18,429 nt of DNA, taken from IMG/VR virus record IMGVR_UViG_2850761752_000004. One strand, 5' to 3'. A program made the position numbers. Numbering within the stretch: position 1 is the first letter of the stretch; the number at the start of each line of letters is the position of its first letter. The DNA is from a virus. Taxonomy: Duplodnaviria > Heunggongvirae > Uroviricota > Caudoviricetes. Below are positions 9,001 through 18,000 of this stretch, in pieces.

Positions 9001-12000
9001 CGTAAGGCACCGGCATCGGGTTCCCCTGGGCAATCATGTTATCCAGCGAGGAAAAGTACGTGTTCTGTCTGCCGTTATCCGTTGCGCGGTAATCCGGTGT
9101 TTTTGCCTTCGGGGCCAGCATCTGGGCCACACCGCCCAGAATCATGCTGGCTCCAAGTGAAAACAGCATCGTGGTGGCAGAAAAACCACCGGCTGCCAGG
9201 GCTGAACCCCATAACGCCATTGATGCCCCGGCAGTGAAGAAAGAGCCCACGATGGCTGCCGCCCCCAACACAATCTGCAGTCCACCCTTTCCGGCCCCGG
9301 CCAGTCGCGGCACAATGTGGATGACCGTTCCCTCACCCAGCTGTTCGTGAAGACGGGCATACACCGCCTCCGGTGCCGTGTCATCACCGGCAATACGTAT
9401 CTGGTACCAGCCTTCGTTCATCTGACGGCGAAAGCCCGGCATCTGCATCGACAGGGCGCGAATGGCTTCCGCTGCCGTGTTCACATACAGGCTGAGGCGG
9501 CGGCCAAATCGTTGCAAATCCCCGTGAAGGCAGATGCGTGCCAGTGGCGGTGACGCCAGACAGAATGCGTTCGTCGTTGCCATTTTTCGGAATACCTCTC
9601 CCGTTTACTCAGTTGTTCAGGCAGATGGTGAAGCAGCTCACCGTTGCCGCAGTAAATGGTGGCATGGTTCGGTACCGAAGCACCAAAGCAGCACAGCAGA
9701 ATATCGCCCGGCGGTGCAGAGGACAGGGGCACCCGGTAAAAGCCGGTGACCGCCATATTGTCCAGGTACAGGTTCTGGCCGTTGCGCCACCAGTCATCCT
9801 CGCGATGAAAATCCGGCATATCAATTCCCGCCAGATGGTATGCATCCCGGAACAGCGTGTAACAGTCCGTCACCCCGTGCTCAAAGCGCCGTCCTGTCAG
9901 ATGTGGCACACAGCGGAATTTATGAATTTCCCCCCGGCAGACCAGCCACCAGGGCAGTGCGCTTTTTATCTGCAGCCGCCGGTCAGCCTCGCTCAGCCAG
10001 GGCAGCTCACCGGGATGACTGTGGACCAGTGCCACAATCTCCCCCTGCATCTCTGCCCGCAGCCAGTCTTCCGGTGCGATACGAAAATACGCCTCCGGCT
10101 CTGCAGAAATATTCACACAAGGGATATACCGCTCCCCCTCCGGCGTGCTTATCACGAAGCCGCACGACTCCGCAGGCGCACACCGCCGGGCATGCGCCAG
10201 AATCGCTGATTCAGTCTGTGTCATAAATCGGGATTTACTGCGAAAGTTTATTAATGGAAAGGAAACCGCCAAAATTGCCGACATTCCTGCGCAGTTCACA
10301 CCCGCGCATGCACTTGCTGCATCTGTCCTTACGGATATCCGTGGTGGGTTTATCGAACTCATCCGCCACAGCCCCGCCCGTGTAACCACACTCATCAGAG
10401 CGGTAGGTCCACATACAGGTGTTCGCCAGCATGATACGACCGGGAAACAGCGCCCCGTCCGTCTCGGTCGGTGTAGCCAGCACAAACGAGGCCGTCATGG
10501 CTGTCAGCTGCGACATCTGCTCCACCACCCAGCGGTCACTCAGCTCCTGCTCCGGGTCCGCCTCCGGATTGCCCGCAACGAAATTCACCGCATCCAGAAA
10601 ACGGGCATACACCCGGCGGCGGACCACCGTGGCCCCCACCAGACTCTGCAGGTCTTCCGCCATCCCGGTGACCAGACCGAACAGATTGGACACCGTCAGC
10701 GACGGTCTGGCACTGCTGCCCCGGCCGTTCATCTCAAAGCCGCTGCCGTCAATCGGGTATGCCTCATACTTACGCCCCTGCCAGGTGACCGGCTCCCCTT
10801 TTTCATTCAGCTCATTACAGAAAAAATACCGCTCACCACCCTGCACCGTCAGGTCAATTTCCCAGAGTACCACCCGCGGTGACTGCTCTGATTTAACCGA
10901 CTCGCTCAGACTTTCTTCGTGAATATCCTGCATCAGTTCACCACCTGCTCAATCGTACAACTGAAATCACTGTACCTGGCGTTATCTGTGACGCTCCACT
11001 CCCGGCATACCACCCTCACCGTCCGGTTATGTTTCGGCGGTCGCCACAAAAAGGCACGGTAACCACCATGCCACGATAAAAACTCTTCCAGCCATCGCCG
11101 GGTCGCCTCATCCGTCACCCGGAACACCGCCTGAAACGTCTTCAGTCGGGCATTAAGTCCCGTCGGGCGGCGCTGTTCATAACCGTCACCAAACCGTACC
11201 CTCGCCACCGACGGTTTCTCACTCACCTGCATCCCTTCACGCGGGACCAGATGCAGCGTTTTTATCTCAGCCACTCAGCATTCCTCCGTCACGTCGCATG
11301 GACAGCATCACCGCCTGCACCCGCTGGTCAATCAGTTGCACAAGGCTGCCCGCAGCTTCCGGCCCTATCTGGCCATTAGTCCCGTCATTCTGAATGGCGA
11401 TATGGTAGACCGGGGAATACACCAGACCTGCACTGCCGTTCATACTGCCCACCGCTCGCACACCCAGCGAGCCATCCGCCGCCCGGGTCAGGGGCATAAT
11501 GGCTTCAGGACCGGCCTCCCCCATCAGTCCCGCCCCTTTTGCAAAGGCAAAGTACGTGGGCGTATCCACAATACTGTTGCTGTACGCACTCAGGTTTGCC
11601 GAGGTATACACACCGCCTTTTGCATTGGCCACCGCACCGCCCAGCCAGCTACCAATACTGCCGATAAATCCTCCCGCTCCGGACATACTGTTTGCCGCCG
11701 TCTTGATCCCGTTGACAATCGCGGCATTCATAAGAACTTTTGATATTTCCTGCAGCACTGATGAGGCCCAGCTGCGCCATTCCACTTTATTTCCGTTCAG
11801 CATCTCCGTGATGTTATTCACCATCCCTGAGATACCCTCCGTCGCAAGCTGTGCTGCCTGTGAGGCGTAATCGGACGCATTATCCACCCAGTTACTGAAT
11901 CCCTCCTGCAGCCCTTTCTGCCAGTCCGCACGCTGCACATCCGATTCGGCATAAAAGGCTTCCTGCTCTTTCAGACGTTCACTCAGATACTGCGCGTTCT

Positions 12001-15000: not shown

Positions 15001-18000
15001 AGCCGCCTTCGTCTTTGTTAACAAAGTCCGTTCGCGTATCAAAGTTCTCCGGTGGGATAAACACGGGGTGTGGTTGTGTACCCGCCGTCTGCACAAAGGC
15101 AGCTTCCGCTGGCCACGTGCAAATGACGCTGCCTGGCACCTCACTCCCGACGAGTTTAACTGGCTGATTGCCGGTGTTGACTGGCAGCAGGTTAAGGGAC
15201 ATGACCTGACGAAATGGGTCTGGCAGAATGAACCTGAACTGCGCCCTGAAAACACGAAAAATACACTGCTAACTCAGTGAAAAATAATGAATATCCGTAT
15301 CTGGAGTGGTATACTCCCCTGTATGGATATCTCCGCTCTCAACACCACGAATGACATCGAAAAACTGCGTGCTATGGCACTTGCCATGGTACAAGAAGTC
15401 ATGTCGGAGAATGCCGAAAAAGAGCGGGAATTACTGGAGAAAAGCCGGCGCATCCAGCTTCTGGAAGAAATGCTGAAACTGGTTCGTCAACAGCGCTTCG
15501 GAAAAAAATGTGAAACGCTGGCTGGTATGCAACGCTCCCTATTCGAAGAGGATGTTGATGCCGATATCGCCGCGCTTACCGCACATCTGGATAAACTGCT
15601 CCCGCAATCCCCTGAAGAAGATGAAAAAGCGTCCCGTTCACGCCCGATACGCAAACCCTTACCGGTTCATCTTCCACGGGTGGAAAAAATGATCCAGCCG
15701 GACACTGACCATTGCCCTGAATGTGACGAGCCGCTGCACTATATCCGCGATGCGGTGAGTGAAAAGCTGGAGTATATTCCCGCTCACTTTGTGGTGAACC
15801 GTTATGTCCGTCCGCAATACAGTTGTCCCTGTTGCCAGAAGGTGTTCAGCGGTGAAATGCCGGCACATATCCTCCCGAAAAGTGCCGTTGAGCCATCAGT
15901 CATCGCACAGGTGATCATCAATAAATACGGTGACCACCTGCCTCTGTATCGCCAGCAACAGGTCTTTGCCCGTTCAGATGTCGGGCTGCCCGTCAGTTCG
16001 ATGGCTGACATGGTTGGCGCGGCGGGTGCCGCATTATCTCCCCTGGCGGCGTTACTCCATCGCGAGTTGATAAACCGTCCGGTGGTGCATGCAGATGAGA
16101 CTACCCTGAAGATCCTGAACACGAAGAAAGGCGGTAAATCCTGCTCCGGTTATCTGTGGGCATACGTCAGTGGAGAAAGGACGGGACCGTCAGTTGTGTG
16201 CTTCGACTGCCGGACCGGACGTAGCCATGAGTATCCTGAAAACTGGCTTCAGGGCTGGGGCGGGACGCTGGTTGTCGACGGACATAAAGCTTACCGGACT
16301 CTGGCAAACAAAGTGCCGGAGATCACGCTGGCCGGATGCTGGGCCCATGCCCGCAGGGGCTTCGCCGACCTGTATAAAATCAGTAAAGATCCACGGGCTG
16401 CCATAGCCGTGAAGAAAATCGCGGGGTTGTACCGTCTTGAGAAGAAGATCAGTAGCCGCCCCGTGGAAAAAATCCGCCAGTGGCGACAGCGTTATGCCCG
16501 TCCGATACTGGAAGAACTGTGGTCATGGCTTGAAGAGCAGGAACCGCAATGTTCTCCGGGAAAGGCATTACACAAAGCTATTGCCTATGCGCTGTCTCAT
16601 CGCGTGGAACTGAGCCGCTTCCTGGAAGATGGTGCGGTGCCGCTGGATAATAATGTGTGTGAACGGGCCATCAAAAACGTGGTTCTGGGCAGAAAATCGT
16701 GGCTGTTCGCCGGTTCGCAGATGGCGGGAGAACGCGCCGCGCAAATAATGAGCTTGCTGGAAACCGCGAAACGCAACGGTCTGGAGCCGCATGCCTGGTT
16801 GACAGACGTCCTGATGCGTCTGCCGGAGTGGCCGGAGGAGCGACTGGCAGAGTTGCTGCCTCTTGAGGGATTTACCTTCTCCGGGTGAGTGATACCTGCC
16901 GTCAGGTGTTCGTGCACCGGGCCATAACCTGCAGTCGGGAGTTGAACTCCTGACGGCAGGAAATGAGCCAGACCAGCAACCACGCGGGCTGACAGCGAAT
17001 AAGAACCTGAATCAGCCCGGAGTCATTCCCGGGTCAGTACATCATCACCTGCAATTAATCCCCGAGTCAGTACTTCGCGGCCTGACGCGATCACGCTACT
17101 CAGTACTTCAGAGCCCGCCTCCGGTACCTGCCTGGCGATCGCCTCTGTGCAACAAAATAAATCAACCGTTATCAAACCACGAGCGTTCGTATGCGCCGCC
17201 GATGACGCGCGCCTGAAAAACGCGTCAATATGAGTTCCCCGGAAGCTTACAATTTTGATAATCAGTTCACGTAACGTCGCCATTCACCTTTCTCCGGGCG
17301 TAAAAAAACCGCCTCAGCGGTTCTCATCATTCATGACTGTGCTGCAAAGCTCAGCGCGTCTTCCAGCGCCGCAAACGGATCCACCTCCGGCTTATCCTCA
17401 TCCTCGCCCCAGCAGAGCATGACGTCCTTCAGTGCAACATTCATCCCCTGTGCCCCGAAAACCGCTTTCACGATCTGTGCATTACGGATATCCCCGCGCT
17501 CATCACCCAGCGGGGATATCCTGTCGAACTCCATCCACATCATCGCCTCGCTCGCACTCAGGCTGTGGCGCAGTTCGGATAAGGTGCGCCCCAGACGGAG
17601 CGCAAGTCGCATCAGAAAGCGAATTTCCGGGCGGGCTACTTTTTTCTGGCCGACTCTGCATCAGCGATCAGTTCCAGTGCCTGACGCAGCAACCGGGCAT
17701 GTACCGGACCATAGACGGCCAGCACCTGCTCACGGTCGTCCGGAGTGAACACCCGCTGCAGGTCCGTATCACACAGGACATCGCAGAACAGCGTCACATC
17801 CGCTTCCAAGTTACGGCGGGTTTTCGCCACCACCGACAGGGTATCGTCATCCTCTCCATCACCATTGAGCACTTCCTGCCACAGATACCAGGCCTCTGCC
17901 GAAGGCTCCCGCAGCACCACGCTGACATTCCCCCATTCCGGCACCTTCACCGTTTTATGACGAAACCCTGACAGTCTGGCCAGCGCCAGCGTTTTCAGAT

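What the first reader, a model, noticed from the sequence alone, without database searches (positions are those of the whole stretch)
11267..17283. Tape measure gene disrupted twice: IS66-family insertion after codon 11 and an in-frame amber codon mid-gene
Removing 14485-17250 and one copy of the 8-bp repeat AATTTTGA gives a continuous frame MATLRELIIKI-SANSQSFQSEIQRASRMGSEYY..., so the IS landed inside the start of H. The first ATG of H (17281-17283) sits 47 nt after the T stop with a GGAG upstream, as expected for the T-H junction. Separately, the two large H-frame ORFs are in one frame and split only by the TAG at 13049-13051. Either lesion alone should prevent a full-length tape measure, so the tail module looks cryptic. 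The residual possibilities are amber suppression or expression of an N-terminally truncated protein from the ATG at 14428.
Basis: seen in the sequence. Interest (0 to 1): 0.55.

Follow-up and report, generated by a model that had tools for sequence, protein, structure and literature searches.

The report
Twice-broken tape measure gene, Shigella prophage
The tail-length "tape measure" gene of a decayed lambda-like prophage in Shigella boydii is broken first by a jumping-gene (IS66-family) insertion and later by a CAG-to-TAG stop mutation, which is ordinary prophage decay and not a new biological system.

Summary
A 2766-bp ISEc49-like IS66-family element (14485-17250) lies after codon 11 of the lambda-H-like tape measure gene, flanked by an 8-bp target duplication. 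Removing it and one repeat copy restores a 3243-nt gene. That is the length of intact E. coli homologues, with an identical start and empty site. The TAG at 13049-13051 is codon 487, which is CAG (Gln) in four intact E. coli homologues and in seven Shigella loci examined.

The window is 100% identical to Shigella boydii ATCC 8700 (CP026731.1). Related assemblies give the order of events. The same IS insertion with CAG occurs in S. boydii Sb227, S. flexneri serotype 6 and other assemblies (index: 993 blocks). IS plus TAG is confined to a sublineage (44 blocks). The nonsense mutation therefore arose in an already dead gene.

The module has further damage. An IS1 truncates the major tail gene V at the window edge, the head genes are deleted in this strain, and the side tail fibre carries a frameshifting 152-nt deletion. 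No tRNA gene lies in the window and no promoter-like site reads out of the IS into H. This is IS-driven prophage decay typical of Shigella. Interest is low.

The parts
17251..17283 (-). First 11 codons of the tape measure gene H (MATLRELIIKI). The last 8 nt (17251-17258) are one copy of the target-site duplication.
   Evidence: Identical to the annotated start of intact E. coli tape measure genes. ATG at 17283-17281.
17023..17283 (-). 86-aa chimeric ORF made of 11 H codons fused to 75 codons read from the IS end. It serves as a marker for this exact insertion.
   Evidence: ORF list. No Pfam hit. The exact product is listed in 993 blocks of the assembly collection, always next to the IS in the loci examined.
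14485..17250 (+). ISEc49-like IS66-family insertion sequence, 2766 bp, antiparallel to H. It carries tnpA 14572-14901, tnpB 14888-15280 and the tnpC transposase 15287-16888.
   Evidence: Pfam TnpB_IS66, DDE_Tnp_IS66, zf-IS66, LZ_Tnp_IS66 and DDE_Tnp_IS66_C. Full-length 99.0-99.7% copies in other contexts, annotated ISEc49 family. Inverted repeats.
14477..14484 (.). Second copy of the 8-bp target-site duplication AATTTTGA.
   Evidence: Only two occurrences in the window, and they flank the IS.
13052..14476 (-). H codons 12-486. An ORF of 459 aa can be called from the internal ATG at 14428.
   Evidence: Pfam TMP_3 and the N-terminal part of Phage_HK97_TLTM. Colinear with intact homologues.
13049..13051 (-). 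Nonsense codon TAG, which is Gln487 (CAG) in homologues. The change is C to T at 13051.
   Evidence: CAG in four E. coli homologues and in seven Shigella loci that carry the same IS insertion. No E. coli record matches the TAG version.
11267..13048 (-). H codons 488-1080 plus the stop.
   Evidence: Pfam Phage_HK97_TLTM (remainder) and Tape_meas_lam_C. Same frame as the upstream part.
17331..18010 (-). Tail assembly chaperone genes G (17636-18010) and T (17331-17612, in the -1 frame relative to G). Both are full length.
   Evidence: Pfam Phage_TAC_1 and Phage_tail_T. Same lengths as in E. coli.
18025..18415 (-). 3' remnant of the major tail gene V (nt 327-717 of 717, the Ig-like domain), cut off by IS1. 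The last 14 nt of the IS1 end are 18416-18429.
   Evidence: BLAST against intact V. Pfam Ig domains only. IS1 ORF adjacent in the source genome.
5189..11274 (-). Downstream tail-tip genes M, L, K, I and J, all still full-length ORFs.
   Evidence: Pfam. Lengths equal to those in an E. coli prophage.

Best explanation
The region is the tape measure gene (the lambda gpH equivalent) of a lambdoid prophage remnant in Shigella boydii, inactivated in two successive steps. In the first step an ISEc49-like IS66-family element transposed into the gene after codon 11 and duplicated 8 bp of target. This separated the promoter-proximal start and ribosome-binding site from the other 1069 codons and placed 2.8 kb of antiparallel IS DNA between them. 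That event is shared by several Shigella lineages: S. boydii Sb227, S. boydii clade 3, S. flexneri serotype 6 and other assemblies. In the second step, in the sublineage that includes ATCC 8700 and strain 602068, a C-to-T transition changed Gln487 CAG to TAG in the already non-functional gene, which is neutral decay. In the same prophage an IS1 split the major tail gene V. In this strain the head genes and everything upstream of that IS1 are gone and the IS1 abuts pocR/cob; an IS1-mediated deletion is the inferred cause. The side tail fibre gene also lost 152 nt within its collagen-like repeats. No tail and no phage particle can be made from this locus. The sequence lesions, their ancestral states and their order are shown directly. 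The lack of expression is inferred.
For: Exact restoration of a 3243-nt ORF with a native start and empty site identical to intact homologues. An 8-bp duplication, inverted repeats, three IS66-type ORFs and full-length copies of the element elsewhere. Window identical to CP026731.1, which is S. boydii ATCC 8700. Seven Shigella loci carry the identical IS insertion with CAG at codon 487 and an otherwise open H frame. CP049285 (S. boydii 602068, clade 3) is identical to the window. The marker ORF for the insertion is listed in 993 index blocks, against 44 and 28 for the two ORFs that require the TAG. Every place shown with the TAG also has the IS. V is truncated by IS1 and the head genes are absent in this strain. 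The tail fibre is frameshifted. No tRNA in the window. No minus-strand promoter-like site at the IS end, and several terminator-like sites on the minus strand inside the IS.
Against: Nothing in the data contradicts this. There are three caveats. Expression was not measured. 'Blocks' of the index are not counts of genomes, so 993 against 44 gives only a relative abundance. The shared insertion could in principle reflect horizontal spread of an already broken prophage and not vertical descent, although the order of events would be the same either way.
Confidence: 0.95

Rival explanations
1. The TAG, or the IS junctions, are sequencing or assembly errors and the gene is really intact.
For: None found. 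The window alone cannot exclude it.
Against: The same 459-aa and 590-aa ORFs bounded by the TAG, and both junctions, recur in independent NCBI assemblies (CP026731, CP049285 from PacBio+Illumina, AMKG01, AMJU01, AMKB01, PYKO01). They also recur in many Logan assemblies of separate sequencing runs.
Confidence: 0.01
2. A functional product is still made from the broken gene. This could be an N-terminally truncated protein from ATG 14428 or from an IS-borne start, with the TAG read through by a host amber suppressor, or two fragments that work together.
For: The two fragments remain in one frame. Some Shigella annotations call a 1086-aa CDS that reads out of the IS end.
Against: That 1086-aa call begins at a CTG immediately after a TAA inside the IS end, with no ATG, GTG or TTG before 14428. 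No promoter-like site reads out of the IS on the minus strand, and terminator-like sites lie within it. No tRNA in the window. V is truncated and the late promoter region and head genes are deleted, so a tape measure would have nothing to measure. TAG is a derived state found only in an IS-bearing sublineage.
Confidence: 0.03
3. The amber mutation came first, as the primary inactivating lesion, and the IS landed later in the dead gene.
For: From the window alone both orders are equally possible.
Against: Seven loci have the IS with CAG. No locus examined has TAG without the IS.
Confidence: 0.01

Closest known systems
Tape measure protein gpH of phage lambda and the lambdoid prophages of E. coli (RefSeq 'phage tail tape measure protein', e.g. 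WP_000212762.1 in E. coli O157:H16)
   Same: Same position between G/T and M. Same Pfam architecture (TMP_3, Phage_HK97_TLTM, Tape_meas_lam_C). The repaired gene is 3243 nt, the same as the homologues, and differs at 34 nt from the closest one.
   Different: Here the gene is a pseudogene, split by an IS after codon 11 and carrying Q487amber.
ISEc49, an IS66-family insertion sequence (name taken from the RefSeq annotation of near-identical copies)
   Same: 2766 bp, 99.0-99.7% identical over the full length. Contains tnpA, tnpB and tnpC, makes an 8-bp target duplication and has imperfect terminal inverted repeats.
   Different: Nothing notable. It is simply another copy at a new site. None of 5426 complete E. 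coli genomes has this junction.
IS-driven pseudogenisation and prophage decay in Shigella genomes (general knowledge of Shigella genome reduction; not re-read here)
   Same: Multiple IS elements (IS1, an IS66-family element, an IS3-family element) and point or indel lesions accumulate in one cryptic prophage.
   Different: None in kind. This is one specific instance.

Membership tests
IS66-family insertion sequence | Three consecutive ORFs, tnpA, tnpB (PF05717) and tnpC with a DDE_Tnp_IS66 domain | tested here: met
   ORFs at 14572-14901, 14888-15280 and 15287-16888. Pfam hits E=8e-35 (TnpB_IS66) and 2e-90 (DDE_Tnp_IS66). tnpA has no Pfam hit, but identical copies are annotated TnpA in RefSeq.
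IS66-family insertion sequence | 8-bp direct target-site duplication | tested here: met
   AATTTTGA at 14477-14484 and 17251-17258, the only two copies in the window. A single copy is present in the empty site of the homologues.
IS66-family insertion sequence | Terminal inverted repeats. That they typically begin GTAA is my recollection, not tested against ISfinder. | tested here: met
   21-nt arms 81% complementary, lying 6 nt from each end. One end reads GTAAGC, the other GTGTCG. Full-length alignment of other copies ends exactly at 14485 and 17250.
Lambda-type tail tape measure protein (gpH) | Tape measure Pfam domains and a location between the G/T chaperone genes and M | tested here: met
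   TMP_3 (1e-57), Phage_HK97_TLTM and Tape_meas_lam_C. Gene order G, T, H, M, L, K, I, J.
Lambda-type tail tape measure protein (gpH) | A single uninterrupted ORF able to give a full-length protein | tested here: not met
   IS insertion after codon 11 and TAG at codon 487. The locus is a pseudogene of this family, not a functional member.
Programmed stop-codon readthrough or suppressor-dependent gene | Stop codon conserved among relatives, or a suppressor tRNA encoded nearby | tested here: not met
   The codon is CAG in all 11 comparison loci and no E. coli record has TAG. No tRNA gene in the window. The host genome outside the window was not examined.

The most novel reading that the evidence does not exclude
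The tail-tip genes M, L, K, I and J and lom downstream of the dead tape measure gene are still full-length ORFs in lineages that have carried the IS since before S. boydii and S. flexneri 6 diverged. The most novel reading not excluded is that some of them, for example the Lom/Ail-type outer membrane protein or J, are kept by selection for a host function and not merely because too little time has passed. The very low divergence among the Shigella copies (2-6 differences in the 3.2-kb H gene; 0-12 over the 6-kb H-plus-IS segment in the loci that align without gaps) means that intact ORFs are what neutral drift alone would give, so nothing here positively supports selection.
Probability: 0.04. 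Interest if true: 0.3.

Novelty: already known. Interest (0 to 1): 0.1.

Why it matters
It matters little beyond annotation. The locus should be labelled as a tape measure pseudogene in a defective prophage remnant. Some public Shigella annotations instead call a 1086-aa 'tape measure' CDS that starts at a CTG inside the IS end. The shared IS insertion plus the later Q487amber give a small nested pair of phylogenetic markers for the lineages that carry the insertion (S. boydii and S. flexneri 6 among those named here). The case is also a clear example of a nonsense mutation accumulating after, not causing, gene death.

Tried and rejected
(1) I searched 5426 complete E. coli genomes for the H/IS junction and for the TAG-containing 61-mer. 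Neither is present, so the source is not in that set. The source was identified instead through an exact-protein look-up and a literature search on the accession.
(2) A scan of GTDB species-representative genomes for the H'-IS junction found nothing. I expected this on my recollection that Shigella is not represented separately there, which I did not check.
(3) I looked for contigs with the amber but no IS by looking up the 590-aa post-amber ORF. All nine places shown also have the IS.
None was found.
(5) I tried to name the organisms of CP026807, CP026834 and CP026840, the relatives that retain head genes, through the paper library. There were no hits, so they are cited by accession only.
(6) I considered a dN/dS test for relaxed selection on H. 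There are only five lineage-specific substitutions (two missense, one nonsense, two synonymous), too few for a meaningful test.
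Full report
**Observation**

On the minus strand the window carries a lambda-type tail module. Removing 14485-17250 and one repeat copy gives a 3243-nt reading frame, MATLRELIIKISANSQSFQSEIQ.... It has one internal stop at codon 487 and the terminal stop. Keeping both repeat copies destroys the frame. The two large ORFs, 13049-14428 and 11267-13039, share one frame.

**What the insert is**

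The 2766-bp segment has imperfect terminal inverted repeats: 21-nt arms, 81% complementary, 6 nt in from each end. It has three ORFs on the plus strand:
- a 109-aa TnpA-type ORF;
- a 130-aa TnpB_IS66 protein;
- a 533-aa transposase with LZ_Tnp_IS66, zf-IS66, DDE_Tnp_IS66 and DDE_Tnp_IS66_C domains.

It aligns over its whole length (1-2766) at 99.0-99.7% with elements annotated 'IS66-like element ISEc49 family' in unrelated chromosomal and plasmid contexts in E. coli. This fixes the ends of the mobile unit at exactly 14485 and 17250. It lies antiparallel to the tape measure gene.

**What the host gene is**

The two fragments carry TMP_3, Phage_HK97_TLTM (split across the TAG) and Tape_meas_lam_C. 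The flanking genes are:
- G (Phage_TAC_1) and T (Phage_tail_T, in the -1 frame relative to G) upstream;
- M, L, K, I, J, lom, a side tail fibre and a gp38-like gene downstream.

Intact E. coli homologues (O157:H16 Res13-Lact-PEA12-26, WP7-S17-ESBL-04, O111:H- 11128, O10:H32 NMBU-W12E19) have a 3243-nt tape measure gene. Its annotated start and first 11 codons are identical to the window's 17283-17251. Their sequence across the insertion point...ATCAAAATTTCGGCA..., is the exact empty site. The closest homologue differs from the repaired gene at 34 of 3243 nt. Codon 487 is CAG (Gln) in all four. A 61-mer centred on the TAG has no perfect match among 741 matching E. coli records, and the best hits have one mismatch.

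**Source and independent confirmation**

An exact look-up of the 459-aa ORF returned contigs that carry both lesions. The window is 100% identical over 15.4 kb to CP026731.1. Two papers identify that record as Shigella boydii ATCC 8700. The same arrangement is present in other NCBI assemblies and in many read-run assemblies. It is also in CP049285, S. boydii 602068 (clade 3), assembled from PacBio plus Illumina reads. The lesions are therefore not sequencing artefacts.

**Order of events**

The 86-aa chimeric ORF (11 H codons plus 75 IS-derived codons) can exist only with this insertion. It is listed in 993 index blocks. The two ORFs that need the TAG are listed in 44 and 28 blocks.

Ten loci carrying the chimeric ORF were compared with the window.
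- Seven have the same IS at the same site with CAG at codon 487 and an otherwise open H frame. These include the S. flexneri serotype 6 strains CP162059 and CP160647.
- CP000036.1, which I recall to be S. boydii Sb227, also has the IS followed by an undivided 1086-aa call, so it lacks the TAG. An indel in its IS copy prevented the ungapped comparison.
- Two are identical to the window: the window's own record and CP049285.

All nine distinct places shown for the post-amber ORF also carry the IS. The IS insertion is therefore older and widespread. Q487amber is a later C-to-T change in a sublineage, in a gene that was already dead. Two missense changes (G270E, R441W) and one synonymous change are shared by all the Shigella copies but by none of the four E. 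coli homologues.

**The rest of the module**

- *Major tail gene V.* The window's right edge (18416-18429) is the end of an IS1. Only nt 327-717 of V survive.
- *Head genes.* In some relatives (CP026807, CP026834, CP026840, PSST01) the other half of V and the head and connector genes lie beyond that IS1. In the window's strain the IS1 abuts pocR and the cob genes, so the head module has been deleted.
- *Side tail fibre.* The gene at 3050-4463 is split by a net 152-nt, frame-shifting deletion within its Gly-X-Y repeats, relative to an E. coli copy that reads through.
- *Still intact.* G, T, M, L, K, I, J and lom keep the same lengths as in E. coli.

- There is no tRNA gene in the window.
- No ATG, GTG or TTG lies between the TAA in the IS end and the ATG at 14428.
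- The 1086-aa CDS called in some Shigella records begins at a CTG directly after that TAA, which looks like an annotation artefact.
- The consensus scan finds no promoter-like site on the minus strand at the IS end and several terminator-like sites on that strand inside the IS.
- With V truncated and the late region deleted, a tape measure fragment would have no tube to template.

These points make functional expression very unlikely, but it was not measured.

**Comparison with what is known, and verdict**

This is a pseudogene of the lambda gpH tape measure family, interrupted by another copy of a known IS66-family element, in a genus well known for IS expansion and prophage decay. The added findings are:
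- the identity of the source;
- the ancestral codon at position 487;
- the order of the two lesions;
- three further lesions in the same prophage.

Nothing here is mechanistically new. Interest is low.

Noticed in passing
window 18025-18429 (and CP026731.1 upstream, locus L005 5180-6013): The major tail gene V survives only as its 3' 391 nt (the Ig-like domain). An IS1, whose last 14 nt are window 18416-18429, cuts it. In this strain the IS1 abuts pocR/cobUST. Relatives (L023, L028, L031, L032) still have portal-to-V head and connector genes on the far side of the IS1, with a roughly 10-bp duplication TAAATTCCTG(G). This points to a later IS1-mediated deletion.
   Followed up: yes
window 3050-4463 (-): The side tail fibre gene (phage_tail_N, collagen repeats and a Peptidase_S74 chaperone domain) is split into 286-aa and 195-aa ORFs in different frames. 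The cause is a net 152-nt deletion inside the Gly-X-Y repeats, relative to an E. coli copy (L033) that reads through as 519 aa.
   Followed up: partly
window 1208-2421 (-): An IS3-family element (orfA HTH_Tnp_1 at 2095-2421; orfB rve at 1208-2098) sits immediately beyond the gp38-like gene (2473-3009). A DinI-like gene fragment and prophage-end sequences lie at 1-1200, judged from the annotation of E. coli matches.
   Followed up: partly
window 17300-17325 (-): A terminator-like hairpin (AACCGC-TGAG-GCGGTT followed by a T-run; the predicted 9-bp stem also uses upstream GAG and three of the T's) lies in the 47-nt gap between the T stop and the H start. Its free energy is -14.6 kcal/mol with a z-score of -3.2 against shuffles. 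A similar hairpin is present in the E. coli homologues. The consensus terminator scan did not list it.
   Followed up: partly
loci L023-L032, 8757-12017 (equivalent to window 14536 downwards, - strand): Public annotations of other Shigella genomes call a 1086-aa 'tape measure' CDS that starts at a CTG directly after a TAA inside the IS end and reads out through the target duplication into H. This hides the fact that the gene is interrupted.
   Followed up: yes
window 17636-17645 (-): The run A AAA AAG lies immediately before the G stop codon, and T is in the -1 frame. This fits the conserved G/GT programmed frameshift of lambda-like tail chaperones. It is read from the sequence only and was not tested.
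   Followed up: no
locus L025 (CP000036.1) about 8480-8700: The IS copy in this genome has a 15-nt length difference in the tnpA/tnpB region. tnpB is called there as a 210-aa fusion, so that copy of the IS may itself be degenerating.
   Followed up: no
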